A stretch of 64,000 nucleotides of DNA from a virus, in the IMG/VR virus record IMGVR_UViG_3300020048_002392, positions 17,838 to 81,837 of that record; one strand, written 5' to 3'. The notes under the pieces were generated by a model. It ran no database searches. It worked only from the letters and a program-made list of their open reading frames with translations, and was not told the DNA's origin. The translations under genes and the position numbers were made by a program. Shown in pieces: positions 15,460 to 53,554 of the stretch; position 1 is the stretch's first letter; the number at the start of each line of letters is the position of its first letter.

Positions 15460-15641
15460 TACGCGACGAAAGAACCAAAGCTTTAATAAACCCCGATGCG
15501 GACGCACTATATAAATATAAAGCGGAACGCGAAAAGAACCGCAAAATGATTAAGATAGAGAATGATCTAGAAAATCTTAATCGAAAAGTAGAAGCTTTAT
15601 CTAAACTTTTAGAAAATAGAACAGAGAAGAATAATGGCTAA
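15456..15641 (+). CDS. Small coiled-coil hypothetical protein
   Basis: 61-aa ORF (RD..TKALIN.D...Y) overlapping its neighbours in operon fashion. Confidence 0.6.
   Translation: MIRDERTKALINPDADALYKYKAEREKNRKMIKIENDLENLNRKVEALSKLLENRTEKNNG
15510..15517 (+). promoter_or_regulatory. T4-type late promoter TATAAATA
   Basis: Exact match ~120 bp before fibre gene 15634. Confidence 0.5.
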
Positions 15642-16977
15642 GTCAATAACTGAAGTAACTGCTAGTAACACCTTCCAAGTATGGCTTGATAAAACAAACG
15701 AAATTGTTGAAATTATAAACAACGATGTGCTTACAGCATCTCCGTCTGCAAATGGTGACATTACTATAGGTAATGCTACGTTAATTGGTAACCTAACTGC
15801 CAACAATATGATAGCAAGCGCGTTATTAAGAGCAGACACCATAAGCCCGCTAATAGGATCTACATCTATATTAAGCACAGCCTTATTCAATATAACTACG
15901 AGCCAAACCGTTCTTGAAAGACTTACTAGTGCAGTTGGTCCTAGAATGGCATTCACCGATGGTGCTGTTGAATGGCAAGCTGGTTTTGAAAACGCGTTAA
16001 ACAAAAACTTCGTTATTACTTCCGGTGGAACTTCAGTATTTAGAATCACCCCTACTGGTGACGTAGAGATAAATGGCACTGTTACCGCCGGTTCTGTTCA
16101 AGCTGCATCTGCAACCGCAAACACGTTAACTACTGCTAGAACTATTGCTGCTACAGGAGACATAACTTGGTCTGTATCATTTAATGGAGGAAGCAACGTT
16201 ACTGCGGCCGCTACGATACCAGTAAACTCTATAAGCAATACAAAGATAAGACAATCTGCCGGCCTTTCACTAGTAGGTCGCGCAGGAAGCACTCTAGGAG
16301 ATGTAGCCGACATAACATCGTCCGCCGATCATCAAGTGCTTAGAAGATCTGGCTCTACGATTGGATTTGGTGCAGTTGCATTAAACCAAGCTGCCGCAGT
16401 CACTGGAGTGTTGCCGGCAGCAAACGGCGGAACTGGTGCATCTGCGCTAACTGCAAATAAGTTGATGGTTGGAAACGGCGCCGCTGACGTATTAACACCA
16501 ACCGCACTTCATTGGGATGGAGTAAATACACGACTTGGTATTAATACAGTTACTCCGACTGAAAGACTTGAAGTAAACGGAAACGTTAAAGCAACGTTCT
16601 TTATTGGTACTGCTACGTCTGCTCAGTACGCCGACCTTGCAGAAAAGTTCTTACCTGAAACTGATTATGAAATTGGTACAGTCGTAATGATCGGTGGAAA
16701 CGCTGAGATTACCGACACCAAAAATATCGCTGACGTTGCTATCGGTGTTATTTCCGGAGAGCCTGCGTTCATGATGAACGAAACTCTTGCTGGCGGACAA
16801 TACGTTGCGCTAAAAGGTCGAGTTCCAGTTAAAGCAGTTGACACCGTAAGAAAAGGTGATATACTAATACCAGGGCCAAATGGTGTCGCACAGCGCGGAA
16901 TTAGAACGTCCTATAACAAATTTGGTATTGCTATAAGTGATTGGTCGGATGGATTCGTGGAGGCCGTTATATTATGA
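15634..16977 (+). CDS. Short tail fibre/baseplate fibre with C-terminal chaperone-like domain
   Basis: NTFQVWLDKTNEI N-terminus, LTTARTI, GVLP.ANGGTG and RLGINT..P..RLEVNG fibre motifs, and C-terminal YADLAEKF...GVIS..PAF.MN...VALKGRVPVK (autocleaved chaperone-type). Confidence 0.75.
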   Translation: MAKSITEVTASNTFQVWLDKTNEIVEIINNDVLTASPSANGDITIGNATLIGNLTANNMIASALLRADTISPLIGSTSILSTALFNITTSQTVLERLTSAVGPRMAFTDGAVEWQAGFENALNKNFVITSGGTSVFRITPTGDVEINGTVTAGSVQAASATANTLTTARTIAATGDITWSVSFNGGSNVTAAATIPVNSISNTKIRQSAGLSLVGRAGSTLGDVADITSSADHQVLRRSGSTIGFGAVALNQAAAVTGVLPAANGGTGASALTANKLMVGNGAADVLTPTALHWDGVNTRLGINTVTPTERLEVNGNVKATFFIGTATSAQYADLAEKFLPETDYEIGTVVMIGGNAEITDTKNIADVAIGVISGEPAFMMNETLAGGQYVALKGRVPVKAVDTVRKGDILIPGPNGVAQRGIRTSYNKFGIAISDWSDGFVEAVIL

Positions 16978-17450
16978 TATCCAGTGACGAGGTGTTTGCG
17001 TTTATTACGCAATCACTTCCATACGAACAAAGAATCGTTTCATATATTGATAAAAATAACTTACAGCACCAAGTAAATAAATTCTCAGATATACCGTCAC
17101 TTAATGAAATAACATTAAAGTTAGAAGGTATGGAAAAATATTCAAAAAGAATATGGGAACATTGTAAACTATTAGCAATTCAGAAAATGTTTACTGGTCC
17201 AGTATCTTGTCACCTATTCCTAGCACAGATAGGCTCTCCTTCATTTGGTAGGCACACCGATCCAGATGACGTTATAATATGGTGCACAGAAGGAATAAAA
17301 AGTTTGTATGTAGAGGATACCAAATACGATCTTAATCCAGGTTCATCTGTTTCTATACCTGCTAATACTCCACACGAAATTATTAATGAGCATAACTCAG
17401 TAATGTTAAGCTTTGGATTTGAACACTATTATATAGATAAGTTGGTATGA
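16974..17450 (+). CDS. JmjC/cupin-4 type Fe(II)/2OG oxygenase
   Basis: SFGRHTDPDDV...EG.K...L.PG....IP....H. The ATG at 16974 overlaps the upstream stop (ATGA). Confidence 0.75.
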   Translation: MISSDEVFAFITQSLPYEQRIVSYIDKNNLQHQVNKFSDIPSLNEITLKLEGMEKYSKRIWEHCKLLAIQKMFTGPVSCHLFLAQIGSPSFGRHTDPDDVIIWCTEGIKSLYVEDTKYDLNPGSSVSIPANTPHEIINEHNSVMLSFGFEHYYIDKLV

Positions 17451-18475
17451 ATTGGACATTTTACTTAAAAACAACAGAGACCTGTAATTTAAACTGTCTC
17501 CATTGTTTTACAAGCGGCACAAGTGGTGCTAAGATATATTGGAAGCCGGATCTTATAAAGGATTGGCTCAAAAGATTTAGAGAAGAAAATCCAAAGGAAA
17601 CTGATACTGCGCATTGCGAGTTTCATGGAGGAGAACCTTTTCTTGCTCCAGTTTCACAGATGCGAGAAGTCTGGCAGGAATGCAAAGATCTTTGGCCGAG
17701 TATGACTTGGGGTGTAACTACCAATCTAGTCTTCAAACTTACAGATGATCATATAGATTTTATTAAGGGCCCACTTGAAAACCGATTAGGTTCTTCTTGG
17801 GACCCTAAGATACGTTTTGCAAATAAGAAACAATATAATCTTTGGCATTCAAACATTAAGAGACTATTAAATGAAGGTGTAGTAGTTAGACTATTCATCA
17901 GTGTAACTAAAGATACTATCGATTACGAACCTATTGTATTACTGCGTTGGCTAAGAAGATTGGGTGTTCAAGAAGTTTCATTTGAAAGACTTACGAATAA
18001 TGGAAGCGCTAGAAAATCGCCAGGAATATTTCCAACCAACGTTGAAATAGATGAATGGTTTCTAAAGATGCACTTGCAGTCAGAAGCTGTAGGAGCAAGA
18101 GGTTGGTTTGAAAATGACTTCTTAGAAAATGTATATGCTAAGTTTGAAAAACAGTTGAACTCGTGTGGTACTTTCTGCAGGGACTGTGAGGAGAAGCTAT
18201 TCACGTTAAACCCAGACGGATCTATATCTGGGTGTCCAAATGCAGCGCCTGAATTCCAGTTCGGTCATTTAGAGGATGAAATAAAAGTTCTTCTTAAAAG
18301 TCCAAAGCGTATTATAAATATGATTGAAGAAAGAAGCAGAAACCCAAAGTGCTATACCTGCCCAGTCTTCCGTTTTTGTAACGGCGACTGTCACCAATTA
18401 GAATGGCAAGGTGACGTATGTGGTGCACCGAAGAGTTTGATGAGTCATATCGCAAAAGAAAAAGGTTTACTTTAA
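17447..18475 (+). CDS. Radical SAM/SPASM-domain enzyme #1
   Basis: CNLNCLHC, FHGGEP, and SPASM-like Cys set CRDC...DGSISGCPN...CYTCPVFRFCNGDC...C. Confidence 0.92.
   Translation: MNWTFYLKTTETCNLNCLHCFTSGTSGAKIYWKPDLIKDWLKRFREENPKETDTAHCEFHGGEPFLAPVSQMREVWQECKDLWPSMTWGVTTNLVFKLTDDHIDFIKGPLENRLGSSWDPKIRFANKKQYNLWHSNIKRLLNEGVVVRLFISVTKDTIDYEPIVLLRWLRRLGVQEVSFERLTNNGSARKSPGIFPTNVEIDEWFLKMHLQSEAVGARGWFENDFLENVYAKFEKQLNSCGTFCRDCEEKLFTLNPDGSISGCPNAAPEFQFGHLEDEIKVLLKSPKRIINMIEERSRNPKCYTCPVFRFCNGDCHQLEWQGDVCGAPKSLMSHIAKEKGLL
18313..18320 (+). promoter_or_regulatory. T4-type late promoter (TATAAATA) upstream of the 196-aa CHxxC-tail gene
   Basis: Exact TATAAATA about 155 bp before ATG 18476, inside the upstream rSAM gene. 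Similar placement is seen for the late promoters before gp8, VrlC and the fibre. Confidence 0.55.
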
Positions 18476-19066
18476 ATGGCAACTTTAACTAACCCGATTA
18501 ATAAACAGAATATAGTAGATAGATTTGCAGACTATGTAGTCGCAACTGGAAACTCTGGCATATCTTGGGGTACAAATAACCGCCCGCCATATTTCAATAC
18601 AACATACCTAGGTTTCGAACCATTTGGTGGAACTACGGGTGGAAAAGCAATAGAATCATCTGCAGCAAATATAACAGATGCTAATGTAACAGCCGCCACG
18701 ATATATAACGTACTAGTCGCTGAAACACAAAGATATAGTAACATTAGAAACTTGAGAGCTTTAGTTAATGTAACTGGCGCAGGCGGTAATACACCTATAG
18801 GCCCGGAAGTTCCTGGGGCACCAGGTATAATTTACGATGTCACTGCTAAAGCATATCTATCAACAGCATATAGACAAGCAACCATATCTCCAGCAAATGC
18901 TGGAGTTGCAGCAGCTCAAGTTGCTAGAAGTGCTAACCTAGAATCTTTTTATAATAATTTACGAACAACATATTCTACATATGGAAATACTACCGCTACT
19001 ATACAAGTGAACGTATGTCATTCTTCATGTCATACTTCTTGTCATGCAAATAGAGGTAGAAGGTAA
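18476..19066 (+). CDS. Putative virion protein / radical SAM substrate with C-terminal (C-H-x-x)3 tail
   Basis: Ala/Thr/Asn/Gly-rich 196-aa body with no Cys or His until the final CHSSCHTSCHANRGRR (19016-19063). Confidence 0.7.
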   Translation: MATLTNPINKQNIVDRFADYVVATGNSGISWGTNNRPPYFNTTYLGFEPFGGTTGGKAIESSAANITDANVTAATIYNVLVAETQRYSNIRNLRALVNVTGAGGNTPIGPEVPGAPGIIYDVTAKAYLSTAYRQATISPANAGVAAAQVARSANLESFYNNLRTTYSTYGNTTATIQVNVCHSSCHTSCHANRGRR

Positions 19067-19080
19067 AAGGAAGGAATATT

Positions 19081-19803
19081 ATGCAAGTTATTGAAACGAT
19101 TGCACCTATAAGTCTAGATCACTTAAAGGTCTACTTTACAGATAAGGAAACTCTATTTAAAATAAACTACGCAGATTCTGAATTAAAAGAAGATAAGTTA
19201 TTCGTATATCTATCGAATCTAGAACTACCGTGTGACCTAGTGTTTTCTTCAGATGAAGAAGTTATGGCTGCTGTAAAATCATATCTTTATTTTTCTCATA
19301 TTCTATCAGTGCCTATTCTTGAAAATCTAACTATTTCCTTATTACTACAATTTAAAGGAATAGGTGAAGATAAAATATGGCCAGAAGAATTCTTAAATGA
19401 AAATTCAGTTATACTAAATAGTTGGGTACAAAAGCTAGAATCTTTAACTCTTTACAATCTTTATACTGTTGATCTAGAAGATTTGAAAGATTATGTTAAA
19501 ACATTTAAAGAAGATAATACAAATTCTACTGAAGGTATAAACTTTGTTAGTTTGTTAAAAAATCCAAACTTTTATATGTTCTATAATAGTATAGATGAAA
19601 ACAACTTAACATATTATTCTACATATTTTGAAGAGTATATGTTTAAAGGATCTAATCTTTATAGCTACTGGGCAAACGAAAATAACCCAATGTTTATGTT
19701 AACTTGGTCGATAGTTTCTGGTGAATTAAATTATAAAGAATATTTCGAGAGCATTAAGAATGATGAGCAGGAGTTAGCTTTAAGTGTTTCACCTAGCTCA
19801 TAA
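19081..19803 (+). CDS. Hypothetical protein (radical SAM island)
   Basis: 240-aa ORF with AAGGA RBS. No recognisable motif. Confidence 0.7.
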   Translation: MQVIETIAPISLDHLKVYFTDKETLFKINYADSELKEDKLFVYLSNLELPCDLVFSSDEEVMAAVKSYLYFSHILSVPILENLTISLLLQFKGIGEDKIWPEEFLNENSVILNSWVQKLESLTLYNLYTVDLEDLKDYVKTFKEDNTNSTEGINFVSLLKNPNFYMFYNSIDENNLTYYSTYFEEYMFKGSNLYSYWANENNPMFMLTWSIVSGELNYKEYFESIKNDEQELALSVSPSS

Positions 19804-20926
19804 GTTATATCTATGCCATGAAAATACTATTGACACGAATAAAGATAGAGTAGTAATATCTCAAGAAAACGGATATTACATGCACGAAGTAATTCAGAAG
19901 ATATCAAATGGTACTCTTTTTAAGTGCGCAAATAGTATCGACGATTTAATAAAGGGCAAGGATATATCGGAATTCTTTTCCGAACTTATTGACTTTTGTG
20001 TACAAAGGGATCGCCCTCTTTGCATATACACGGATAAGAAAACATTTGCATTCATTCAACTTGCTTGGTTCAATTTGATATTCAAAGAACCATCCTTTGA
20101 AACGTGCGAGATACTATATAACTCAAATGTATTTAAATACGATATGTTTTATAAAGGAAGGTTTTCTTCAAACCACGGTTCAAAGATAAAAATAGATTTG
20201 GCTTTGAATACTGGAACTCTTAAAAGTATATATGATAAAGTTCCTCACGCAGCAAATGCAAAGAAAAGAAGTTTCTTTGCAAGATATTCTAAATACGTAA
20301 GTGTTGAATACTTATTAGCATCGTATGTACACAACGGTTCTATGAAAAAAGAATTAAAAGAGAATATAAGAAGACTCTTGAGAAAAGACATAGAAAAATA
20401 CATATACGAATTAAAAGAAATATTCGTAATACATTTTACAACTCGGACCTTTAAAGAAAGACTAGGTTTAGAAAAAGAATACGATATTCAAAACATGCAG
20501 GACATAGTGAATGACAAATCTAAATTTGCAGAACTCTTTATGTCCAATAGACTATTCTTTGTATCAGGGATGGATCTACCATCGAGTAAGATGAATAAAA
20601 ATTTTAGATTTGAACAAATAACTGATGAAGACGTAAATAACTTTAAAGAATTCACTGTTTTATCCGGCACAACTTGGGGAGAAGAAGCAGTCTATCAGTT
20701 TATCAAATCAGATATAAACAAATTGGACTTTATTGATATTATAAATGACGAGTTTACTGATAAGAGATTGGAAGATCTATTAAATGCAGAGTCTACGTAT
20801 GAACATGCTGCCGGTTCATTCTTTTCAATAGATTTGGAAACTGTAAATAACTATCTTGTAGAATACATATTAGACTCAAGATTTAAAAACGATAGAGAAA
20901 ATCTTAGAAGCATGACTCTATGCTAA
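19784..20926 (+). CDS. Hypothetical protein (radical SAM island)
   Basis: 380-aa ORF, GTG start after GGAG, overlapping its neighbours. Confidence 0.7.
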   Translation: MFHLAHKLYLCHENTIDTNKDRVVISQENGYYMHEVIQKISNGTLFKCANSIDDLIKGKDISEFFSELIDFCVQRDRPLCIYTDKKTFAFIQLAWFNLIFKEPSFETCEILYNSNVFKYDMFYKGRFSSNHGSKIKIDLALNTGTLKSIYDKVPHAANAKKRSFFARYSKYVSVEYLLASYVHNGSMKKELKENIRRLLRKDIEKYIYELKEIFVIHFTTRTFKERLGLEKEYDIQNMQDIVNDKSKFAELFMSNRLFFVSGMDLPSSKMNKNFRFEQITDEDVNNFKEFTVLSGTTWGEEAVYQFIKSDINKLDFIDIINDEFTDKRLEDLLNAESTYEHAAGSFFSIDLETVNNYLVEYILDSRFKNDRENLRSMTLC

Positions 20927-21933
20927 ATGATGATATCTATAAGGCAATATCTAATAAAATAATTCTTCATAGTGAGATAGTAGTATGCTTATTCGAGCAT
21001 TGCAATATGGAATGCATATTCTGTCCGCAGAAACACGATAATATAGTAGGAGCTTCAAGAGAAGAGATACTTTCTAAAGTAGATTCTATAGTAAACTATA
21101 TCAACAATAATAAACGCTCAACTCATTTTAAAATACATGCAATGGGTGGAGAACTGTTTCAAGATCAATGGATTGAAAAAGGTTTCTTAGAAATATATTC
21201 AGATTTCATAAAAGAAATACAAAGCCGAGTAGATAAAGAAATAGAATTTAACTTTATTACGAATTTGGTATTTGATAACACTGATTTAGTAATGCAGTTT
21301 ATAGAGTCGAATAATCTTTTAATCTCTGTATCATATGACGCTAAGGGTAGATTTAGTTTATCGCAATTTGAAATATTTAAAAGAAACATAGAAATATTTA
21401 AAGACAAGATACGAATGATATCTTGCGTTGGCACAAAACAGAATATGAGAGCAATCATAAACGGTAACGAATACTTTAGTTACTTATATGACATGTTTCC
21501 GTGTGATTGGGATTCATTCCTTCCGTCCGTGCCGGTTTCTGAAAAGCTTATGCCAGCTGAAACTGAACTATTAGAGTTCTATAAATTTTTAGTTGACAAC
21601 TACCCAAGATGTATAAACATATCATACTTTACCGAAGACTCTGTTTCTAATAAAATGTCTTGCACCAGAGGAAACAGTCACACGGTCATGCCGGATGGGT
21701 CTACTCCAAAAGGTTGTTCCGGATCAGTACTACTTACAAGCCCAACATCAAACGATCTTTTTTCTGGCGCTATAGTAGAGAAATTCATAAATACATATGA
21801 TTGCTTCCAATGTGAATTCTATAAGAAGTGTCCTTTTACTTGCTTTATTAAAAATGATTACTCTAAGATAAAGCGTGATCTAGGTGAATGCGTTTTTAAG
21901 GAGACGTTTAAATATGTTAAGGAAAAAAATTAA
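20920..21933 (+). CDS. Radical SAM enzyme #2
   Basis: CNMECIFC, MGGEL and C-terminal C...C...CFQCEFYKKCPFTC auxiliary-cluster motif. Confidence 0.88.
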   Translation: MLNDDIYKAISNKIILHSEIVVCLFEHCNMECIFCPQKHDNIVGASREEILSKVDSIVNYINNNKRSTHFKIHAMGGELFQDQWIEKGFLEIYSDFIKEIQSRVDKEIEFNFITNLVFDNTDLVMQFIESNNLLISVSYDAKGRFSLSQFEIFKRNIEIFKDKIRMISCVGTKQNMRAIINGNEYFSYLYDMFPCDWDSFLPSVPVSEKLMPAETELLEFYKFLVDNYPRCINISYFTEDSVSNKMSCTRGNSHTVMPDGSTPKGCSGSVLLTSPTSNDLFSGAIVEKFINTYDCFQCEFYKKCPFTCFIKNDYSKIKRDLGECVFKETFKYVKEKN

Positions 21934-23605
21934 GTTTGCATTTATAAATCCACCACACGCGGATTGGTCATTGGCAAACAACATGACGTATCTAATATGT
22001 CAGAGTTATTATAATCATTTTGGTAAATATAAAGACGACGTTGAATGGATTCCAGCGCCGTATAAGTTTGACTTATATAAAGACATAGAAGAGATAGTAG
22101 ATCTTCTTACTCCAGCGGATGTTATTATGTTTAGTTCTTATGCATGGAACTATACTATATGTGACGACGTGGCAAAAATAATCAAAGAAAAATACCCAGA
22201 AAAGATATTACTATTAGGTGGTCCTCACATTGGAACAAACGAGCCCGATCTTTTAAGCAAAAGAACATTCTATGATTATGTATGTCAACCTACTAAACCA
22301 GGTGAGACATTTATTCAGGACGTAATAGACTGCATTATTGAAGACAGGTTATCTTCTGAAAATATATCTTGGGAACTAAATAGCAAACGTGGAATAAGTG
22401 CAGCATTTGATGTAGATTATTCAGTATACGAGGAACACCTAGATTACCTTACTGAAATGGTAAGTTATGCAAAAAAATATAAATTAGAACCATTCGTTGT
22501 AATAGAAACAACACGAGGATGCCCATATAAGTGTGTGTATTGTGAATGGGGTGGTGGAATTGGTACAAAAATAATAAAGAAAGATATAGAATTAGTTAAA
22601 AGAGATATCTTAGCGCTAAAGAAAGCTGGTTTCAGAGACGCGTATTTAACAGATGCAAACTTCGGCGCATTCGAAGAAAGAGATGTATCTATCTTCAAGT
22701 TTGCATGGGATCACAAGTTTAATCTAACAGATATTAGTACAATGAAATCTAAAGATCTAAATAGAAGAAAGAGATTAATCGATTCTATATCAAATATAGT
22801 TGGAAAAGGGCCAGAAAAACATTCAGTTTCTGAAGGTGGAACTGATATGTGGGGAAATACAGAATACATATCTGTAATACCAGCAGTAAGCATTCAAAGT
22901 GTTAGCGAAGTTGCCATGAAAATTGCCGATCGTGTAGACCTAAGCTTAAAGGATAAGTTAGAACTTTCAAAATATGTAAATCATATGTGTAGTAAAGAAG
23001 ATTATCCAATACCAGCAGTAGAATTAATTCTTGGTATGCCAGGTTCAACGCTTGATGATTTTTATACTGAAGCGAATATCCTATGGGACTTTAAAGCATG
23101 GTCAAGCTTTAGACACGACTATATGTTTCTACCAGATTCCAGATTAAACTCGAAAGAATATAAAGAAAAATACCAAATAGAAACGGTAGAAGTTTATTCT
23201 GATATCGTGGATGAAGATGGCACTGATAACTGGCACAACTTATATAAAAACAAAAGGACATACTTTAAAACTATAAGATCGTGCTTTTCTTTTACGTCGG
23301 AAGATATGTATGAAATGTGGTTTATGAACAATGCTACAAATTACTTATTAAAAAACATTTATCCAATGTTGGAAAATTATGCGTCACCTAAAGAATTTGC
23401 CAAAGAAGCTTACAACGTAATAAATACTATAGAAGGATTTGACGATATCTATCAAGAAATCGTAGACATATTGAATCCTAATACACCTCCAAAATCCATA
23501 AGAAAATTAGGTGACAATTTTAGAGCAAAGACTATAGAAGATTTTCTTGTTAAAAACAATATAATCCTAAAATCTGAAATAACGAAAAGGTTGTTAATAA
23601 AATAA
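21914..23605 (+). CDS. Cobalamin-dependent (class B) radical SAM enzyme #3
   Basis: N-terminal B12-binding-like region (FSSYAWN...GGPH), then IETTRGCPYKCVYCEWG, DANFG and ELILGMPG. Confidence 0.85.
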   Translation: MLRKKIKFAFINPPHADWSLANNMTYLICQSYYNHFGKYKDDVEWIPAPYKFDLYKDIEEIVDLLTPADVIMFSSYAWNYTICDDVAKIIKEKYPEKILLLGGPHIGTNEPDLLSKRTFYDYVCQPTKPGETFIQDVIDCIIEDRLSSENISWELNSKRGISAAFDVDYSVYEEHLDYLTEMVSYAKKYKLEPFVVIETTRGCPYKCVYCEWGGGIGTKIIKKDIELVKRDILALKKAGFRDAYLTDANFGAFEERDVSIFKFAWDHKFNLTDISTMKSKDLNRRKRLIDSISNIVGKGPEKHSVSEGGTDMWGNTEYISVIPAVSIQSVSEVAMKIADRVDLSLKDKLELSKYVNHMCSKEDYPIPAVELILGMPGSTLDDFYTEANILWDFKAWSSFRHDYMFLPDSRLNSKEYKEKYQIETVEVYSDIVDEDGTDNWHNLYKNKRTYFKTIRSCFSFTSEDMYEMWFMNNATNYLLKNIYPMLENYASPKEFAKEAYNVINTIEGFDDIYQEIVDILNPNTPPKSIRKLGDNFRAKTIEDFLVKNNIILKSEITKRLLIK

Positions 23606-24126
23606 TGATAAAAGATATTTACACAAAGGGATTTGTAAAACTAAGTGAACCGTCCGCTCTAGACCTTATAAGGATTGACGAGTTCAGACTACTTAACGTA
23701 GAAGAAAGAGCAAGAGATAACGGTGTAAAAGACGTTAGTCCAGAATTATCAAAGAGAATGGATGTATTTGCGCAATACTTAAAAACAAAATACATACTAC
23801 CAGAATGGCCCGATGCAAAATATAATAAGTTTTTAGTTTGGGACGGAGTTGATGCTGACAACCAAGGTTGGCATACTGATATGTTTGAAAACTACGATGT
23901 CTTCTTTCTTTACTATTTCGATACTCAATACGAAGAAACAGGCGGATCTATAAATTTCAAGTGGGGATCTTTAGAAGATAAGGAAGAAACGGCTCAGTTC
24001 TACCCTCAAGCAGGAGACCTATTCATGGTAAACAATTGCAGAGGATTTTGGCATAGGGCAGAGTCAACAAAGATTACACGAAGACTAGCAAGCTTTGATT
24101 TTAGTGTAGGTTTAGAAGATGACTAA
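23605..24126 (+). CDS. Fe(II)/2OG oxygenase
   Basis: WHTD...GG.I.F...P.AGDL..VN....WH.A....RR (HxD...H...R). Confidence 0.8.
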   Translation: MIKDIYTKGFVKLSEPSALDLIRIDEFRLLNVEERARDNGVKDVSPELSKRMDVFAQYLKTKYILPEWPDAKYNKFLVWDGVDADNQGWHTDMFENYDVFFLYYFDTQYEETGGSINFKWGSLEDKEETAQFYPQAGDLFMVNNCRGFWHRAESTKITRRLASFDFSVGLEDD

Positions 24127-24418
24127 TGAAATAGAAGAGTTGCTTGCCAAGAAACAAATCATCGGAGATGAAAGGGATCTATGCGCAGAGTTATATAACG
24201 TATGGATTACCAAATTGCATGATTTTCAAAAAGACCCGGTAAAGTATAAAATGTATATGGATATGATACAAATGATGGAACCGTATGGCGCGCAATTAAA
24301 GGAAGAGATACGCGAAATAAACAGAAGACTCTGCGAAATAGAAGGTGTCGATTCAATCGGTGAAACGGATTATGTTAGAGAATGCAACAACAAGTACGGC
24401 AAGGCCAAACCAAATTGA
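24119..24418 (+). CDS. Hypothetical helical protein
   Basis: 99-aa ORF overlapping both neighbouring oxygenases. Confidence 0.6.
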   Translation: MTNEIEELLAKKQIIGDERDLCAELYNVWITKLHDFQKDPVKYKMYMDMIQMMEPYGAQLKEEIREINRRLCEIEGVDSIGETDYVRECNNKYGKAKPN

Positions 24419-24915
24419 TAATTGAAGACTTTTTCACTAAAGGATTTGTTCACTCTAAATTTGACATAGACGTCGTAGATATGTTTAAGAATGATCACTT
24501 TATTGACTGTAATTCTAAAGAAGCAGATGATCAGACAATCGGTGAAGAGGCACAACTAAAACTAAATGAAATACATTTGTACATTGGAAAGAGTATCGTA
24601 AAGAAAGTATTTAGTAACTTTACTTATCATAGAAATGGAATGTGGTGTGGGGTTGATACTGGATCTGCAGAATGGCATAATGATTTTATTGATGGCGACC
24701 CTTTTACAAGCAACCTTTTAATATATCTAGAAGATGGTGAACCTTATGGTAATTCTATAGAAGTAAAGAACCAATTTGAAGAGTATAAAGTTATGCCAAA
24801 ACCAAATGAATATGTTTGGCTAAATCAAAACAAAAAATTTATGCATAGAGCGACTCATAAAAGCGGCCCAAGAAGATTACTATCATTTGAATTTTATATA
24901 CCAGCATTGGTTTAA
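24382..24915 (+). CDS. Fe(II)/2OG oxygenase (paralogue of 23605..24126)
   Basis: I.DF.TKGFV N-terminus shared with the paralogue, and GVD.....WHND...HRA.....RR. The start codon is uncertain. Confidence 0.75.
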   Translation: MQQQVRQGQTKLIIEDFFTKGFVHSKFDIDVVDMFKNDHFIDCNSKEADDQTIGEEAQLKLNEIHLYIGKSIVKKVFSNFTYHRNGMWCGVDTGSAEWHNDFIDGDPFTSNLLIYLEDGEPYGNSIEVKNQFEEYKVMPKPNEYVWLNQNKKFMHRATHKSGPRRLLSFEFYIPALV

Positions 24916-24917
24916 TC

Positions 24918-25955
24918 ATGGATCTAATTATCAAACCCACTGAAGTTTGTAACTTCAAATGTACATTCTGCTCTTCTACAAAGATATCAGAGGAACACAC
25001 CTCGCAGTTAGATCTGGAGAAAGTCTTTAGATTCCTTAAGAGATATCCTGAGACAAAGACAATCATTGTAAACGGCGGTGATCCTCTTATGATGAGTCCT
25101 GCGTACTATTGGCGAATGATTAAACACTTAGAAGAAAACAATTACCCTGCGACTATCTCTCTTACTACAAACCTTTGGCCTTTCTATAAGAACGTCTCTA
25201 AGTGGAAGACTTTATTTCTACACCCGAGGATTGGAATCTCAACATCATTCCAATATGGAAACGGTAGACTGAAAGGAGACTACTCAGTATTTACAGAGGA
25301 AGACTTCTGGGCAGCATCTGATACAATGTTAAAAGAGATCGGCTATAGGCCAACGTTCATAGCAGTCATTACAGAAGAGAATGAAGACACTGCGTTGAAA
25401 ACTGTTGAACTTGCAAAAAAGATGGACGTAGTATGTAAAGTAAACTATGCTATGGCTTCAGGTGACCAAGGAGTACCTTATCGTTTATCAAAGATATATG
25501 AGAAGTACATTGAGATCTGGAAGGCAGGTCTTGCTCCGTGGGAACACAACACACAGCAGATGATGAAGAGACTCCGCGGTGAACAAACTATCTGCCCTCA
25601 AACTAGAACCTGCGACTCGAGTATTCGAACGATACAGCCAGAAGGAGACTATTATTCCTGCGGTGCGTTCGGCGACGATCGTGATAAAGCTATTGATTTT
25701 GAATACGAAATGAATGGCGGATTTTCAACTCCTCTTGCTGATGACTTTAACTTACTATCGTTAAAGCAAGTTTGTTTCTCGTGTCCGATGTTTGAAATAT
25801 GTAACGGCTGTAGAAAGACTGTTAAGGATCTGAAAGAACATAGAATGGTAGAAGATCATTGTAAGCATATGAAGCAACTTGCGCCAGATATTATAGAATC
25901 AAACGGATTGAATTTAGAGGTAACACCATATGTCTACGAAGGGCTACACGGTTAG
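24918..25955 (+). CDS. Radical SAM/SPASM enzyme #4
   Basis: IKPTEVCNFKCTFC, NGGDP and CP....C......EGDYYSC...CFSCPMFEICNGC...C. Confidence 0.92.
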   Translation: MDLIIKPTEVCNFKCTFCSSTKISEEHTSQLDLEKVFRFLKRYPETKTIIVNGGDPLMMSPAYYWRMIKHLEENNYPATISLTTNLWPFYKNVSKWKTLFLHPRIGISTSFQYGNGRLKGDYSVFTEEDFWAASDTMLKEIGYRPTFIAVITEENEDTALKTVELAKKMDVVCKVNYAMASGDQGVPYRLSKIYEKYIEIWKAGLAPWEHNTQQMMKRLRGEQTICPQTRTCDSSIRTIQPEGDYYSCGAFGDDRDKAIDFEYEMNGGFSTPLADDFNLLSLKQVCFSCPMFEICNGCRKTVKDLKEHRMVEDHCKHMKQLAPDIIESNGLNLEVTPYVYEGLHG

Positions 25956-26877
25956 TATTAACCCATCTTATTTTTGTAACTTTAGCTGTGATTTTTGTTA
26001 TCTTACTAAATCTCAATTAGCTGATACAAAAAAGATTTCTTTAGAAAGACTAGATGAACTTCTTTCACAGGTTCCAAAGATAGAGTATGTTGATCTTTAC
26101 GGTGGAGAGATCGGCGCGTTAAAGAAATCATACTTCTATGATATGAAAGACGTGATAAGAAAACATTATCAGGATGACATAAATATAATTACAAACTATT
26201 CAATGATACACGAAGGTTTCTATGATGATGACGTTATACTTGGAGTGTCGTATGATTTTGAAGCAAGGGAAAAACACGAAATTGTTTTTAAGAATATGAT
26301 GATTTCACCAGTACCAATTTCAGTTTTAATACTTGCTTCAAAAGAAGTAATTCAAAAAGATGTAGAAGAAATGATTTCTCTTCTTAATATATGTTCTGCA
26401 ATAACTTCAGTAGAAATAAAACCTTATTCGATTAATCAAGCAAACGCTGATAGAGTTACACATAGAGATTTTGAAGTGTTCGTTCAGAAATGGTTAGATG
26501 CAAAGACTGAGAAACTATTTCAATTTATAAATGAAGATAAGATAAAAGAATCTCTATCAAAAGAATACAACGCGTTCTCTGATAATCATATATACATAAC
26601 GCCGAACGGCAAGTTTGCTGTTTTAGAGTTTGATAAGGATGATAAGGAATATTTTTTAGAACTTAATAGTTGGGGTGAATATATAGAATGGACGAAAAAG
26701 GAAAAAGAAAACATAAGTCCTTTCTGTAAGGAGTGTATATATTTTGGAAACTGTTTAACAGAACATTATAGATACGTGGATAATTTAGAAAACAGTTGCA
26801 ATGGATATAAAGGGTTATTGGATTTTTATAATGAAAGAATGGAAAATAAGACAAGAGATATATCACAGACTACATAA
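25930..26877 (+). CDS. Radical SAM enzyme #5
   Basis: NPSYFCNFSCDFC, YGGE and C-terminal CKECIYFGNC.TEH......C. Confidence 0.88.
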   Translation: MSTKGYTVSINPSYFCNFSCDFCYLTKSQLADTKKISLERLDELLSQVPKIEYVDLYGGEIGALKKSYFYDMKDVIRKHYQDDINIITNYSMIHEGFYDDDVILGVSYDFEAREKHEIVFKNMMISPVPISVLILASKEVIQKDVEEMISLLNICSAITSVEIKPYSINQANADRVTHRDFEVFVQKWLDAKTEKLFQFINEDKIKESLSKEYNAFSDNHIYITPNGKFAVLEFDKDDKEYFLELNSWGEYIEWTKKEKENISPFCKECIYFGNCLTEHYRYVDNLENSCNGYKGLLDFYNERMENKTRDISQTT

Positions 26878-27235
26878 AGAGTATGATGACGATTTGAATA
26901 AAGTCAACATAGTTATATCTGAAGACGTGATTAAAGATGCAATAAGACATTTTAATGAATATGTAGAGGATTGGATATATCCTTCGAAAAGCTATTTCGT
27001 TGCTATATGTTATGCGTATTGGTTATCAGAAGAGTTTAATGAAAACTTTTATGATCTTTTAAACGACCCAGATCTATTAGCAGGAAATGACCCTTATTAC
27101 ACTACATACAACAAAGATAAGAATACATATGATTCAATATTAAGTGGTATAAAACTTCCGATTGAATATAAAGGTATGGTGAACGAAGTAAGAAAATATT
27201 ATGACGAGGAATTTAATGACCCAGCAAAATTCTGA
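26831..27235 (+). CDS. Hypothetical acidic/aromatic protein
   Basis: ORF within the island, probable start ATG 26831. Confidence 0.6.
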   Translation: MKEWKIRQEIYHRLHKEYDDDLNKVNIVISEDVIKDAIRHFNEYVEDWIYPSKSYFVAICYAYWLSEEFNENFYDLLNDPDLLAGNDPYYTTYNKDKNTYDSILSGIKLPIEYKGMVNEVRKYYDEEFNDPAKF

Positions 27236-27725
27236 TTACCTTAATCTATGGCCTACCACAGTATATAAGTCTACATTTGAAGTAAATGAAGATATGATAA
27301 TATCTGCAATGCAAAAGGAAATTCATCAATCTATATATGATCTATCTTTAAAATATTTTGATGATTACTTAAAAGAAGTTATAGGTATTTCTTTGTATGA
27401 TTATAAAGGATATAGACTAGATTCTTGGATAAATAGATATGAAAATACGGATATGGAATATCACACTCATAATGGCTCTCAGCTAAGTGCAGTTTTCTAT
27501 CTAGTAGTTGAAGGTGACGGTGGAGAAATAACTTTTTACGACCCTAGGTTTTTTGCAGCGAGGGGATACGATATGAACTTTAGAAAGCTGCATAGTAACT
27601 TTGTATTAAAACCTAGTAGTGGTGACTTTGTGATATTTCCAAGCTTCTTATATCATTCGGTAAAAATATCAAAAGGGTTTAAGATATCAATACCGGTGGA
27701 TTTGTTTTTGTTTAATGATAACTAA
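27216..27725 (+). CDS. Putative Fe(II)/2OG oxygenase (TIGR02466-like)
   Basis: SWIN....HTH....LSAVFYL...I.F.DPR...P..GD..IFPSFL.H.V. GAGGA RBS before ATG 27216. Confidence 0.8.
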   Translation: MTQQNSDYLNLWPTTVYKSTFEVNEDMIISAMQKEIHQSIYDLSLKYFDDYLKEVIGISLYDYKGYRLDSWINRYENTDMEYHTHNGSQLSAVFYLVVEGDGGEITFYDPRFFAARGYDMNFRKLHSNFVLKPSSGDFVIFPSFLYHSVKISKGFKISIPVDLFLFNDN

Positions 27726-27726
27726 A

Positions 27727-27734
27727 TATAAATA
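27727..27734 (+). promoter_or_regulatory. T4-type late promoter TATAAATA
   Basis: Exact match in the intergenic gap before ORF 27769. Confidence 0.75.
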
Positions 27735-50168: not shown

Positions 50169-50570
50169 ATGACGAAAGTATTTGTGAATGGGACCTTTGA
50201 TGTTCTTCACCCAGGCCATATAGCTATGCTCACTTATGCAAGTAATTCTGGAGATGAATTACTTGTTGCTATCGATTCGGATAGAAGAGTAAAGGAAAAG
50301 AAGGGTGACGATCGTCCTATAAATAATGAAGATACACGAGCTAAGATAATCTTTCATATTAAAGGCGTCGATAGAGTCGTAATATTCGACACGGATGAAG
50401 ATCTTCGATCCGCAGTAAAAGAATATGAACCAGACATTATGATAGTAGGTTCTGATTATGAGAATAAAGAAGTGATAGGAAGTGAATATGCAAGAGAACT
50501 TAAATTCTTTAAAAGAGACGAAAGATACTCTTCAACAAAGATCATTAAAAATATTATTAATAGGAGATAG
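50169..50570 (+). CDS. D-beta-D-heptose 1-phosphate adenylyltransferase-like (RfaE domain II/HldC)
   Basis: NGTFDVLHPGH, DSD.RV...KG..RP.N, GSDY and YSSTKII. Confidence 0.85.
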   Translation: MTKVFVNGTFDVLHPGHIAMLTYASNSGDELLVAIDSDRRVKEKKGDDRPINNEDTRAKIIFHIKGVDRVVIFDTDEDLRSAVKEYEPDIMIVGSDYENKEVIGSEYARELKFFKRDERYSSTKIIKNIINRR

Positions 50571-51950: not shown

Positions 51951-51965
51951 AGAGAGGTTTATATT

Positions 51966-52325
51966 ATGACAAGACTAAAAGGGTACGTTGAAAAGGGTTG
52001 GGGACACGAACTTATATGGGTCACTAACGATAAGTATTGCGGCAAGTTGATGAAGTTCAACAAAGGAGCAAAGTTCTCGATGCATTTTCATGCGGTAAAA
52101 GACGAAGCATGGTATGTTATGGATGGAGTCTTTCATGTCACTTGGATCAACACTCTAGATGCCTCTAAGATCACTACTAAGTTGAAAGGTGGCGATACCT
52201 GGAGGAATGAACCACTGACTCCACATCAAGTAGAATGCATTGAAGAAGGTACTATCATTGAGGTCTCGACTCCAGATTCTGTTGAAGATAACTATAGAGT
52301 TATGCCTGGAGATAGTCAAAAATGA
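51966..52325 (+). CDS. Cupin (sugar isomerase-like)
   Basis: KGWG.E, SMHFH..K.E.W, H and IEVST.D...D.YR..PGD. Confidence 0.75.
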   Translation: MTRLKGYVEKGWGHELIWVTNDKYCGKLMKFNKGAKFSMHFHAVKDEAWYVMDGVFHVTWINTLDASKITTKLKGGDTWRNEPLTPHQVECIEEGTIIEVSTPDSVEDNYRVMPGDSQK

Positions 52326-53134: not shown

Positions 53135-53190
53135 TAATCCAATTATACCATTGTTAGAAAAGATGTCAACTACTTTGAGTATGTTTCCAT

Positions 53191-53198
53191 TATAAATA
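53191..53198 (+). promoter_or_regulatory. T4-type late promoter TATAAATA
   Basis: Exact match, intergenic, before ORF 53220. Confidence 0.75.
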
Positions 53199-53552: not shown

Positions 53553-53554
53553 AA

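What the first reader, a model, noticed from the sequence alone, without database searches (positions are those of the whole stretch)
16974..27725. Phage-encoded RiPP-like maturation island (5 radical SAM + 4 oxygenases) embedded among tail genes
Seen: five CxxxCxxC enzymes (two with clear SPASM Cys sets, two with shorter C-terminal Cys clusters, one B12-dependent class B), one JmjC-type and three other Fe/2OG oxygenases, and four unknown ORFs. They are tightly overlapped and flanked on both sides by fibre genes. Known: SPASM rSAMs, class B methylases and JmjC/2OG hydroxylases are the standard post-translational toolkit of RiPP clusters (ranthipeptides, triceptides, His-Xaa-Ser and CXXX-repeat systems). 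No exporter, protease or nucleotide-metabolism gene is present. Inference: the island extensively modifies a phage structural protein instead of making a secreted peptide. This is the best candidate for a new system in the window.
Basis: partly seen in the sequence, partly recalled or inferred. Interest (0 to 1): 0.92.

Follow-up and report, generated by a model that had tools for sequence, protein, structure and literature searches.

The report
Phage radical-SAM module matures CH-tailed protein
A ten-kilobase gene block in the tail region of a T4-like phage belongs to a widespread, undescribed enzyme set that most likely modifies the Cys-His-rich end of one dedicated protein; the same set also occurs in jumbo phages and in predatory Bdellovibrio-like bacteria.

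Summary
Window 16974-27725 encodes four SPASM/twitch-type radical SAM enzymes, one B12-type radical SAM enzyme, a cupin, three Fe/2OG oxygenases and five ORFs of no known family.

The key gene is the 196-aa ORF at 18476-19066. It ends in (Cys-His-x-Ser)x3 followed by Arg-Gly-Arg-Arg.
- **The tail recurs with the enzymes.** Of 64 viral loci fetched only through the neighbouring rSAM, 53 have such a protein immediately downstream.
- **The family is large.** A profile search finds 842 clusters (50% identity), and 144 of the best 150 carry the tail.
- **Gene order is conserved.** It runs fibre, cupin, rSAM1, tailed protein, two unknowns, rSAM2, (B12), rSAM3, rSAM4, a 144-aa unknown, oxygenases.
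- **The substrate has its own late promoter.** TATAAATA lies within 250 nt upstream in 75 of 108 cases, against 0-14% for every other module gene.
- **It also occurs in bacteria.** The module sits in Bdellovibrionota chromosomes beside S74-type fibre genes.

Ten literature searches found no description of it.

Best reading: a dedicated protein-maturation system. That the product is a virion component is plausible but not shown. I rate it a new variant of a known kind, of high interest.

The parts
15634..16977 (+). 447-aa fibre-like protein. Its last ~125 residues (about 320-447, with YADLAEK...GRVPVK) are the only part conserved in the fibre genes upstream of the module elsewhere.
   Evidence: PHROG tail-fibre families. 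Weak Peptidase_G2 intramolecular-chaperone hit. C-terminal domain shared by 116 upstream ORFs of 355-2037 aa (alignment A5). 41% identical to a PA5oct protein annotated as virion structural protein / tail pin.
16974..17450 (+). Cupin-fold (JmjC-like) oxygenase. Its ATG overlaps the stop of the fibre gene; the ORF listing gives an upstream TTG at 16941.
   Evidence: PF07883 E 6e-10; JmjC_2 at cutoff; phrog_8014 E 5e-23. Found before rSAM1 in 67 of 123 loci.
17447..18475 (+). rSAM1, a radical SAM enzyme with a full SPASM domain, immediately before the substrate gene.
   Evidence: CxxxCxxC at residues 13-20. TIGR04085 40.2 bits against cutoff 27. phrog_1802 E 8e-67. 42-52% identical to proteins of 9 distinct cultured jumbo phages in 15 records.
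18313..18320 (+). TATAAATA, a T4-type late-promoter-like box inside rSAM1, 163 nt before the substrate start codon.
   Evidence: The same box lies within 250 nt upstream of 75 of 108 distinct homologous substrate genes, against 0 of 105 for rSAM1 and 0 of 99 for the 240-aa gene.
18476..19066 (+). 196-aa substrate candidate: a confidently folded alpha/beta N-domain plus a flexible tail.
   Evidence: AF2 model pLDDT 86.4, pTM 0.80, tail pLDDT 52-60. 842 family clusters. No Pfam or NCBIfam hit.
19016..19063 (+). The tail itself: residues 181-196, C-H-S-S-C-H-T-S-C-H-A-N-R-G-R-R.
   Evidence: Cys and His are invariant, and Ser occupies the 4th repeat position in 130, 108 and 121 of 136 representatives. 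The motif is unique in the window.
19081..19803 (+). 240-aa protein of no known family (phrog_20767), the usual gene after the substrate.
   Evidence: Follows the substrate in 85 of 123 loci. AF2 model pLDDT 90. Missing from the short tandem-type loci.
19784..20926 (+). 380-aa protein of no known family.
   Evidence: Present in 45 of 123 loci. No Pfam, PHROG or NCBIfam hit.
20920..21933 (+). rSAM2, a radical SAM enzyme with a C-terminal Cys cluster.
   Evidence: phrog_1802 E 3e-27; PF04055 E 1.9e-4. This orthologue group is present in 7 of 7 loci with full flanks.
21884..23605 (+). B12-binding (class B) radical SAM enzyme, probably a C-methyltransferase. An accessory part of the module.
   Evidence: PF02310 and PF04055; KedN5-family model E 1e-23. 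Present in 14 of 123 loci and 2 of 7 full loci. 54-57% identical to the Bdellovibrionota copies.
23605..24126 (+). Fe/2OG oxygenase A.
   Evidence: PF13640 E 1.5e-4, under cutoff; phrog_19592. HxD...H visible.
24119..24418 (+). 99-aa protein of no known family. It travels with the B12 enzyme and oxygenase A.
   Evidence: 55% identical in genome G002.
24382..24915 (+). Fe/2OG oxygenase B.
   Evidence: PF13640 E 3.7e-4, under cutoff.
24918..25955 (+). rSAM3, a radical SAM enzyme with a SPASM-type Cys set.
   Evidence: PF04055 43.6 bits; TIGR04085 24.6 bits; phrog_1802 E 5e-58. 50-57% identical in Bdellovibrionota.
25930..26877 (+). rSAM4, a radical SAM enzyme with a short C-terminal Cys cluster.
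   Evidence: phrog_1802 E 2e-29. 49-51% identical in Bdellovibrionota.
26801..27235 (+). 144-aa protein of no known family (phrog_20737). A core companion, also present in the short-type and bacterial modules.
   Evidence: Alignment A4 has 20 invariant columns.
27201..27725 (+). Fe/2OG oxygenase C (PF13759 type).
   Evidence: PF13759 51.5 bits; phrog_81.
27727..27734 (+). The next TATAAATA box, before the 715-aa gene. It marks the end of the island's transcription unit.

Best explanation
The island is one copy of a conserved module that matures a single dedicated protein, the 196-aa product of 18476-19066.

The proposed mechanism:
- The protein has a folded N-terminal domain and a flexible 16-residue C-terminal tail, (Cys-His-x-Ser)x3-Arg-Gly-Arg-Arg.
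- The four paralogous SPASM/twitch radical SAM enzymes (rSAM1-4) each carry out one step on this tail. The most likely steps are intramolecular cross-links of the Cys, His and Ser side chains, either thioether or His-to-C-beta (cyclophane) type.
- The B12-type enzyme (C-methylation), the cupin and the Fe/2OG oxygenases (hydroxylation) are variable decorating steps.
- The substrate gene has its own late promoter inside the preceding enzyme gene, so it is made late and in excess over the enzymes.
- The matured protein most likely stays intact and works with the baseplate/fibre apparatus that contacts the host envelope.

Shown here: the genes, their families, the invariant tail, the co-occurrence, the promoter pattern and the distribution.

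Inferred: that the tail is the substrate (my odds about 0.85), the chemistry (open), and the virion or fibre role (about 0.4).
For: 1. **Invariant tail.** Four very different phages (the window, Pseudomonas DT01, Agrobacterium Atu_ph07, Ralstonia RSL2) have a protein right after the rSAM1 orthologue. Its N-domains are 19-33% alike, but the tail is the same CHxSCHxSCHxxRxRR.
2. **Test independent of the motif.** 66 IMG/VR loci were fetched through rSAM1 alone. Of the 64 with a complete downstream ORF, 53 have a CH..CH..CH-ended protein. Several of the other 11 carry it elsewhere on the same contig.
3. **Family size.** The profile search gave 842, 559 and 127 clusters at E 1e-3, 1e-10 and 1e-30. 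Of the best 150, 144 have the tail.
4. **Conserved order and core.** All 7 loci with full flanks have exactly four non-B12 rSAMs, one of each orthologue group.
5. **Promoter.** TATAAATA lies within 250 nt upstream of 75 of 108 substrate genes, against 0-14% for the other 15 gene classes and 0.033 per 250 nt as background.
6. **Accessible tail.** The tail is predicted flexible and exposed.
7. **Enzymes more conserved than substrate body.** Between the phage and Bdellovibrionota, rSAM3, rSAM4, B12 and oxygenase A are 49-62% identical, while the substrate N-domain is 25%.
8. **Links to fibres.**
   - The module sits after a T4-type baseplate gene row (PHROG hub/lysozyme and wedge-subunit families) and a fibre gene.
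   - A fibre gene with the same C-terminal domain precedes the module in 66 of 123 loci.
   - In the short type, two tailed genes directly follow a fibre gene of up to 2037 aa.
   - Two fused forms carry an N-terminal Gly_rich_2 domain.
   - In 3 of 3 Bdellovibrionota genomes inspected, a Peptidase_S74 fibre-like gene lies within about 2 kb, among housekeeping genes.
Against: - No modification has been observed.
- All matches of the rSAMs to curated maturase families are far below cutoff (for example PapB 46.9 against 340, HxsB 34.2 against 370), so the chemistry cannot be read from homology.
- No RiPP recognition element, protease or exporter was detected.
- In 11 of 64 rSAM1 loci the tailed gene is not the next gene.
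- For the virion role:
  - RSL2's RefSeq annotation marks ORF057 and ORF065 as virion structural proteins but ORF068, the tailed protein, only as hypothetical.
  - Adjacency to fibre genes among related phages may partly be inherited gene order.
  - The module also occurs on a contig of a Dysosmobacter isolate and in MAGs of other phyla, whose context I did not resolve.
- The function of the TATAAATA box in these phages is inferred from T4 (recalled knowledge), not measured.
Confidence: 0.55

Rival explanations
1. The tail is the core of a released small product: a peptide-derived cofactor, metallophore or toxin made by PQQ- or mycofactocin-like logic. The folded N-domain would serve as a very large leader that is cut off by one of the unknown ORFs or by a host protease.
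For: - The core lies at the extreme C-terminus, is invariant, and comes with SPASM rSAMs and oxygenases. From recalled knowledge, this is the pattern of PQQ and mycofactocin precursors.
- Five ORFs have no assigned function and could include a peptidase.
- The N-domain varies widely in size, 125-309 aa.
Against: - No peptidase, exporter or PqqD-like domain was found.
- The N-domain is a confidently folded 180-residue domain, far larger than known leaders.
- Its own late promoter, tandem duplicated genes after fibre genes, and fusion to a glycine-rich domain fit a protein product better.
Confidence: 0.2
2. The enzymes modify other proteins, such as the fibres or baseplate proteins around them. 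The CH-tailed protein would be an accessory, for example a metal or Fe-S donor, scaffold or fibre chaperone, and not the substrate.
For: - The module is embedded among structural genes.
- A Cys/His tail can bind metal without modification.
- A conserved fibre C-terminal domain always lies nearby.
Against: - The only feature invariant across the whole family is the tail, while the fibre bodies vary freely.
- The module keeps the tailed gene in Bdellovibrionota and in jumbo phages that have unrelated structural genes.
- The CH..CH motif is absent from every other frame in the window.
Confidence: 0.1
3. The product is a counterpart of the bacterial HXS effector HxsA: an rSAM-matured His-x-Ser protein that acts in the envelope on incoming DNA. 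The phage would use it for superinfection exclusion or counter-defence.
For: - H-x-S repeats are matured by rSAMs in a folded protein, and the tail is basic.
- HxsB and HxsC are among the weak NCBIfam hits.
- The HXS mechanism is described in PMC13128918 (abstract and sections 9-10 read).
Against: - Scores are far below the HxsB and HxsC cutoffs, and there is no HxsA or HxsD hit.
- Pfam found no peptidoglycan-binding domain.
- Expression from a late promoter is unlike exclusion genes, which are early in T4 (recalled).
- The module also sits in predatory bacteria beside fibre genes.
Confidence: 0.08
4. The island serves nucleotide, DNA or cofactor metabolism, and its link to the tailed protein is incidental.
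For: - Weak hits of some rSAMs to MoaA, NrdG, viperin and QueE-like models.
- Phage rSAMs do act in thymidine hypermodification (PMC8989533, seen only in a search listing).
Against: - Those hits cover only the shared N-terminal cluster region and are weaker than the maturase hits.
- The co-occurrence with the tailed gene is far too regular to be incidental.
- There are no nucleotide-metabolism genes in the module.
Confidence: 0.03

Closest known systems
His-Xaa-Ser (HXS) system: HxsA matured by the radical SAM enzymes HxsB and HxsC with HxsD (PMC13128918; abstract and sections 9-10 read)
   Same: - Radical SAM enzymes act on repeated His-x-Ser units that are part of a folded protein, not a short peptide.
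- A small partner protein is needed.
- The modified repeat lies in a basic stretch.
- The paper maps a +8 Da change to an S-H-R-S-S motif.
   Different: - The phage enzymes score 34.2 bits (HxsB, cutoff 370) and 29.0 bits (HxsC, cutoff 267.9). No HxsA or HxsD model is hit.
- Here every His is preceded by an invariant Cys, there are exactly three units at the extreme C-terminus, and R-G-R-R follows.
- There are four rSAMs plus oxygenases.
- The gene is a viral late gene beside fibre genes.
- No peptidoglycan-binding domain was found.
Ranthipeptide (PapB), CXXX-repeat and Cys-every-fifth SPASM maturase systems
   Same: - Regularly spaced Cys residues next to SPASM radical SAM enzymes.
- PapB is the second-best curated hit of rSAM1 (E 2e-12).
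   Different: - The score is 46.9 bits against a cutoff of 340.
- The substrate is a 125-309-aa folded protein with a hyper-conserved 'core' and a variable remainder, the reverse of typical RiPPs.
- No leader protease or exporter.
- Four different rSAMs serve one 16-residue tail.
Three-residue cyclophane (triceptide) maturases: FxsB, GrrM/OscB, YhhB, AmcB families
   Same: - An aromatic-x-x unit (here His-x-Ser) could be cross-linked from the ring to C-beta of the third residue. This chemistry is recalled from the literature, not tested here.
- These families appear among the weak hits.
   Different: - All scores are far below cutoff.
- An invariant Cys sits in every unit.
- The context is viral and fibre-linked.
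QhpD/QhpC: SPASM radical SAM maturation of the small subunit of quinohemoprotein amine dehydrogenase
   Same: A SPASM enzyme installs several Cys cross-links in a protein that keeps them as part of its function (recalled knowledge). TIGR03906 is among the hits of rSAM1 and rSAM2.
   Different: - The score is 26.1 bits against a cutoff of 453.
- No dehydrogenase subunits are present.
- The substrate family is different.
PQQ and mycofactocin pathways
   Same: An invariant C-terminal core, SPASM radical SAM enzymes and oxygenases (recalled knowledge).
   Different: - No PqqD/RRE domain and no peptidase were found.
- The precursor here is a folded protein several times larger.

Membership tests
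Radical SAM superfamily (PF04055) | CxxxCxxC cluster motif and a match to the family model | tested here: met
   All five enzymes show CxxxCxxC. PF04055 is above cutoff for rSAM3 (43.6 against 29.5). For the other four it is below cutoff but significant (E 8e-6 to 1.9e-4). The four non-B12 enzymes match phrog_1802 at E 8e-67 to 3e-27.
SPASM-domain radical SAM enzymes (TIGR04085) | A C-terminal domain with the Cys set for auxiliary Fe-S clusters | tested here: met
   rSAM1 scores 40.2 bits against cutoff 27. rSAM3 scores 24.6 bits, just under. rSAM2 and rSAM4 have C-terminal Cys clusters visible but no model hit. So the feature is met for one enzyme, borderline for one, and only sequence-level for two.
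Class B (B12-binding) radical SAM methyltransferases | An N-terminal B12-binding domain followed by a radical SAM domain | tested here: inconclusive
   PF02310 scores 29.1 bits against cutoff 32.1, and PF04055 22.2 against 29.5. The best subfamily, KedN5, scores 83.2 bits against cutoff 700. The architecture fits, but there is no family membership.
His-Xaa-Ser system (HxsA-D) | HxsB and HxsC equivalog models reached; HxsA and HxsD present | tested here: not met
   HxsB 34.2 against 370. HxsC 29.0 (rSAM3) and 16.4 (rSAM2) against 267.9. No HxsA or HxsD hit at E 0.01 for any island protein scanned.
Ranthipeptide / PapB family | PapB equivalog model reached; a short Cys-rich precursor | tested here: not met
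   46.9 bits against 340. The substrate is a 196-aa folded protein.
RiPP biosynthetic gene cluster in the usual sense | Leader-core precursor, a recognition element (RRE), leader peptidase and/or exporter | tested here: inconclusive
   A precursor-like gene with a modified-core candidate is present. No RRE, peptidase or exporter family was hit. Five ORFs remain unassigned.
Fe(II)/2OG oxygenases and cupins | Match to family models; His-x-Asp/Glu...His triad | tested here: met
   PF13759 51.5 against 27 (27201-27725). PF07883 39.1 against 27.2 (cupin). The two PF13640 hits are under cutoff at 23.1 and 21.8 against 27. HxD...H is visible.
Virion structural protein | Detected in purified virions, or homologous to a known structural protein | not testable with these tools
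   No annotated homologue: 631 relatives, those that carry a source name (about a quarter of the 120 listed) all called hypothetical, the rest unnamed. RSL2 ORF068 is not marked as a virion protein. The Atu_ph07 proteome table S5 is closed.

The most novel reading that the evidence does not exclude
A previously undescribed class of radical-SAM-matured proteins. Under this reading, diverse N-terminal domains carry an invariant (Cys-His-x-Ser)3-RGRR tail that four dedicated SPASM-type enzymes convert into a cross-linked, possibly metal- or redox-active, end piece. T4-like phages, jumbo phages and Bdellovibrio-like predators all deploy it on or with their trimeric fibres when they attack the envelope of Gram-negative cells. 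That would be the first post-translationally cross-linked 'warhead' or cofactor of a virion host-contact apparatus, shared between viruses and bacterial predators.
Probability: 0.3. Interest if true: 0.92.

Novelty: new variant of a known kind. Interest (0 to 1): 0.82.

Why it matters
**For phage biology.** Radical SAM/SPASM maturation is known for small peptides and a few bacterial proteins. It is not known as a conserved part of phage tail-gene regions.
- This module has hundreds of sequence clusters in metagenomes.
- It is present in cultured jumbo phages of Ralstonia, Burkholderia, Agrobacterium, Sinorhizobium and Pseudomonas, where it is so far listed only as 'accessory genes'.
- It is also present in predatory Bdellovibrionota.

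**For enzymology.** One 16-residue tail is served by four distinct, conserved rSAM orthologue groups. That is an unusually compact system for finding new cross-link chemistry on Cys, His and Ser.

**For function.** If the product is part of the host-contact apparatus, it would add a new kind of component to phage adsorption or penetration machinery. It would also link phage and predator attack systems.

The question is directly testable with existing phage isolates and heterologous expression.

Tried and rejected
**Fold of the 196-aa protein (model).**
- Foldseek against PDB gave no match with E <= 0.001 (best E 1.2).
- BFVD returned only family members, such as the Atu_ph07 protein.
- VIA-align wide gave best Z 4.1, rmsd 5.4, 147 aligned residues.
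- This is no evidence that the fold is new.

**Fold of the 240-aa protein (model).**
- Foldseek against PDB gave best E 0.19.
- VIA-align wide gave best Z 4.6 over residues 1-55 only.

**Other searches on the unknown ORFs.**
- Profile searches of the 240-, 380- and 144-aa families against PDB sequences gave nothing credible. The pentatricopeptide hit of the 144-aa profile has no matched stretch passing on its own.
- ESM Atlas look-ups of the 240- and 380-aa proteins gave no usable lead.
- PADLOC gave only weak viperin-type and PDC-M51A hits to the shared rSAM core.

**Complex prediction.** Complex prediction on the tailed protein plus the 240-aa protein returned 'no answer', score 0.00 against a mark of 0.32. 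The controls were not run. This is no evidence either way.

**Searches of the phage collection.**
- megablast of the island found no match.
- tblastn with a short tandem-type tailed protein found no match.

**Sequencing runs.** No RNA holder was listed. The holders were DNA runs of aquatic and freshwater metagenomes, two of them possibly the source.

**Closed sources.**
- Supplementary tables are closed. Table S5 of PMC6102473 (Atu_ph07 virion proteome) and the tables of the FLC6, S13 and RP31 papers may say whether the tailed protein is in virions.

**Literature.**
- Ten searches were run.
- None found a description of this module.
- The jumbo-phage papers PMC5468394, PMC8066314 and PMC11898562 (passages read) only list the cupin, rSAM and 2OG genes.
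- In PMC7824862, a find for 'radical' and 'SPASM' returned 0 occurrences.
- In PMC10769870 (Bdellovibrio MAT fibres, passages read), 'radical' has 0 occurrences.

**Considered and dropped.**
- That Cys and His are strongly excluded from the N-domain. Cys is 0.26% against 0.58% in neighbouring proteins, and 113 of 151 proteins have no Cys outside the tail, but His is 0.88% against 1.28%. The effect is mild.
- That the whole-window count of TATAAATA is above chance. It is 11 against 7.2 expected, and 10 of 100 shuffles reach 11. The signal lies in placement, not number.

Full report
**What is in the window.** Between 16974 and 27725 lie 14 tightly packed + strand genes. Five are radical SAM enzymes.
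- rSAM1 (17447-18475), rSAM2 (20920-21933), rSAM3 (24918-25955) and rSAM4 (25930-26877) all fall in one viral family, phrog_1802 (E 8e-67, 3e-27, 5e-58 and 2e-29).
- All four have C-terminal Cys clusters. rSAM1 reaches the SPASM domain model (40.2 bits, cutoff 27) and rSAM3 is just under it at 24.6.
- The fifth enzyme (21884-23605) has a B12-binding domain plus a radical SAM domain.

The block also holds a cupin (PF07883; JmjC_2 exactly at cutoff) and three Fe/2OG oxygenases (one clear PF13759, two PF13640 under cutoff). Five ORFs, of 196, 240, 380, 99 and 144 aa, have no Pfam or NCBIfam family.

Upstream are T4-type baseplate genes, which I read as gp5, gp25, gp6, gp7 and gp8 equivalents from their PHROG labels. 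Next come a 1778-aa DUF4815 protein and a 447-aa fibre-like protein. Downstream are a 715-aa protein and a collagen/S74 fibre.

**The key gene.** The 196-aa protein (18476-19066) starts one base after the stop of rSAM1. It ends in C-H-S-S-C-H-T-S-C-H-A-N-R-G-R-R, and this CH..CH motif is the only one in all six frames of the window.
- tblastn of rSAM1 against cultured phages found nine distinct jumbo phages in 15 records at 42-52% identity.
- I inspected three of them: Pseudomonas pPa_SNUABM_DT01, Agrobacterium Atu_ph07 and Ralstonia RSL2. In each, the gene after the rSAM1 orthologue encodes a protein of 178-296 aa. Its body is barely alignable, but its end is again CHxSCHxSCHxxRxRR.

**How general is it, and is the link independent of the motif?**
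These loci, with the three isolates, hold 151 ORFs ending in the motif.
- That set is selected on the motif, so I fetched a second set through rSAM1 alone: 66 loci, 64 of them with a complete downstream ORF. In 53 of the 64 that ORF ends in CH..CH..CH.
- The other 11 break down as follows. Four have a second rSAM paralogue next, six have the rSAM3 type next, and one has a 231-aa unknown. For at least four of them, the same contig carries the tailed gene nearby (compare contig names).
- The second set also shows natural variation. The Ser position can be Asn or Ala, and one protein lacks the RGRR end.
- A profile of 46 family members, searched against 1.84 billion representatives, found 842 clusters at E <= 1e-3 and 559 at <= 1e-10. 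Of the best 150, 144 have the tail, and the six others have near variants.
- In 136 canonical members, Cys and His are invariant. Ser fills the fourth position of the three units in 130, 108 and 121 cases.
- A second database gave 631 relatives. Those that carry a source name are all called hypothetical, and none has a precomputed Pfam domain.

**The module.**
- phmmer of the window's proteins against all ORFs of the 123 loci gives one recurring order: DUF4815, fibre, cupin, rSAM1, tailed protein, 240-aa, 380-aa, rSAM2, (B12), rSAM3, oxygenase, rSAM4, 144-aa, oxygenase.
- Counts of loci with a hit, out of 123, are in the table below. Many loci are short, so absence means little.

| Gene class | Loci with a hit (of 123) |
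|---|---|
| Tailed protein | 114 |
| rSAM1 | 85 |
| 240-aa | 85 |
| Cupin | 67 |
| Fibre | 66 |
| rSAM2 | 61 |
| 380-aa | 45 |
| rSAM3 | 41 |
| rSAM4 | 30 |
| 144-aa | 20 |
| B12 | 14 |

- Only 7 loci have at least 8.5 kb downstream and 1.6 kb upstream. All 7 have exactly four non-B12 rSAMs, one of each orthologue group. Two have the B12 enzyme, and 5 have at least one 2OG oxygenase.
- The core is therefore the tailed protein plus four distinct rSAMs, usually with the cupin and the 144-aa protein. The B12 enzyme, the oxygenases and the 99-aa protein are variable additions.
- A short form also exists. Two tandem tailed genes of 125-140 aa directly follow a fibre gene of up to 2037 aa. There, the rSAMs, cupin and 144-aa gene lie elsewhere on the contig, and the 240- and 380-aa genes are not found.

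**Expression signal.**
- TATAAATA, the T4 late-promoter box (recalled knowledge), occurs 11 times in the window, every time on the + strand.
- Four of the copies matter here: 9987 before the DUF4815 gene, 15510 before the fibre gene, 18313 inside rSAM1 and 163 nt before the tailed gene, and 27727 before the next gene after the island.
- The total is not above chance (7.2 expected), but the placement is.
- Across loci, the box lies within 250 nt upstream of 75 of 108 distinct tailed genes.
- For the other 15 gene classes the fraction is 0-14%, for example rSAM1 0 of 105, the 240-aa gene 0 of 99, rSAM2 5 of 80 and the cupin 5 of 85.
- The same-strand background is 0.033 per 250 nt.

A promoter kept inside an enzyme gene, just before the tailed gene, fits a product needed late and in larger amounts than the enzymes.

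**Structure.**
- With the 46-sequence alignment, AlphaFold2 gives a confident alpha/beta domain (pLDDT 86.4, pTM 0.80) and a low-confidence, exposed tail.
- The 240-aa protein also folds confidently (pLDDT 90).
- Neither model gave a clear match to solved structures. Details are under Tried and rejected.

**Beyond phages.**
- The same DNA pattern, scanned over one genome per species (185,579 species), gave 27 stretches. By record title, 16 are from Bdellovibrionota MAGs, including contigs of 1.29 Mb, 382 kb and 299 kb.
- Several of the remaining 11 look like viral contigs binned into MAGs. One example is three contigs of one Rhodobacteraceae bin with the short form after a fibre gene of about 2000 aa.
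- In three Bdellovibrionota genomes I read 40-60 kb around the hit. Each has the tailed gene, rSAM1-4, the 240- and 144-aa genes and the cupin. Two also have the B12 enzyme, oxygenase A and the 99-aa gene.
- The surroundings there are housekeeping genes, not prophage genes: serine dehydratase, an Mrp/NUBPL ATPase, YchF, PRPP synthetase, CarB, and PilM/PilQ.
- In all three, one or two Peptidase_S74 fibre-like genes (336-413 aa) lie within about 2 kb of the module. One of them has a prepilin N-terminal motif.
- S74-ended, phage-like fibres are the prey-recognition 'MAT' adhesins of Bdellovibrio (PMC10769870, passages read). That paper counts 13 of them in one genome. Three of three adjacencies is therefore unlikely by chance, though this is my rough estimate and not a test.
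- A sample of 401 genomes of that phylum has the tailed protein in 15.
- Identity between the window and the bacterial copies is 49-62% for rSAM3, rSAM4, B12 and oxygenase A, 30-39% for rSAM1, the cupin and the 240- and 144-aa proteins, and 25% for the tailed protein's body.

**Reading.** Across all this diversity, only two things stay fixed: the 16-residue tail and the four rSAM groups. The simplest account is that the tail is what the rSAMs work on, and I put that at about 0.85.
- The chemistry cannot be read from homology. The best curated hits (anaerobic sulfatase maturase, PapB, DynA, DarE, HxsB, cyclophane formers, QhpD) are all peptide or protein maturases, but they score at about a tenth of their cutoffs.
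- The tail reads both as Cys every fourth residue, which suggests thioether donors, and as His-x-Ser units, which suggests a cyclophane type or the still undefined +8 Da change of HxsA (PMC13128918). Four enzymes acting on three units suggests more than one kind of bond.
- A conserved 'core' with a variable body is the reverse of antimicrobial RiPPs. It resembles protein-borne cross-links or cofactors.

Several features favour an intact protein product tied to the host-contact apparatus:
- the late promoter;
- the place in the baseplate/fibre operon;
- the fibre C-terminal domain that travels with the module (116 ORFs);
- the tandem short genes directly after giant fibre genes;
- two fusions to a Gly_rich_2 domain;
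- the S74 neighbours in predators.

None of this shows presence in virions, and RSL2's annotation does not list the protein among virion proteins. I give that part about 0.4.

**Rivals.** In order of weight:
- a released tail-derived small product (0.2);
- enzymes that act on other structural proteins, with the tailed protein as helper (0.1);
- an HxsA-like envelope effector (0.08);
- nucleotide or cofactor metabolism (0.03).

**Known or new.** Ten full-text searches found no description of this module. Genome papers on FLC6, S13, RP12/RP31 and others list the cupin, rSAM and 2OG genes as accessory genes without comment. The system belongs to the known kind 'radical SAM maturation of a ribosomal product'. 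It meets none of the curated family definitions tested. It also differs in its substrate (a folded protein with an invariant end tag), in its enzyme set, and in its biological setting. I class it as a new variant of a known kind.

The scan's earlier notes on this genome are first-reader notes on the same stretch, with no follow-up.

Noticed in passing
L117:7816-8515 and L205:3907-4266: A multi-repeat variant of the tailed protein: several CHSSCH(D/S)SCHSNVV units in a row before the final ...SARGRR. One is on a 4.3-kb contig of a cultured Dysosmobacter segnis isolate, followed by the 240-aa, 380-aa, rSAM2 and rSAM3 genes.
   Followed up: partly
L055, L015, L004, L199, L204, L215 and others: The short form of the system: two tandem tailed genes of 125-140 aa, with abutting start and stop codons, directly after a fibre gene of 355-2037 aa. 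The rSAM genes lie elsewhere or on the other strand.
   Followed up: partly
L223:4597-5643 (genome G003): A 348-aa Bdellovibrionota protein combines a prepilin N-terminal methylation motif with a C-terminal Peptidase_S74 chaperone domain. It lies next to the module and near pilM/pilQ.
   Followed up: no
P0157 (453 aa) and P0273 (374 aa): Two metagenomic proteins fuse an N-terminal Pfam Gly_rich_2 domain (PF21722) to the tailed-protein domain.
   Followed up: partly
window, whole: All 11 copies of TATAAATA are on the + strand. Several sit just before gene starts: 9987, 15510, 27727, and a run at 50318-53809.
   Followed up: partly
window 2681-4234: Directly after the gp5-like hub/lysozyme gene lies a 517-aa protein with a peptidase-family N-part and an endolysin-family C-part by PHROGs.
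   Followed up: no
L192, L193, L211, L213, L216: MAGs labelled Marinovum, Rickettsiales, Flavobacteriaceae, 'bacterium' and a Methanobacteriota archaeon carry phage-like copies of the module on contigs of 32-228 kb with 32-37% G+C in the stretches read. They are probably viral contigs binned with cells.
   Followed up: no
L016, L072 (same contigs as L173, L163): Some phages have two rSAM1-type paralogues flanking the tailed gene.
   Followed up: no
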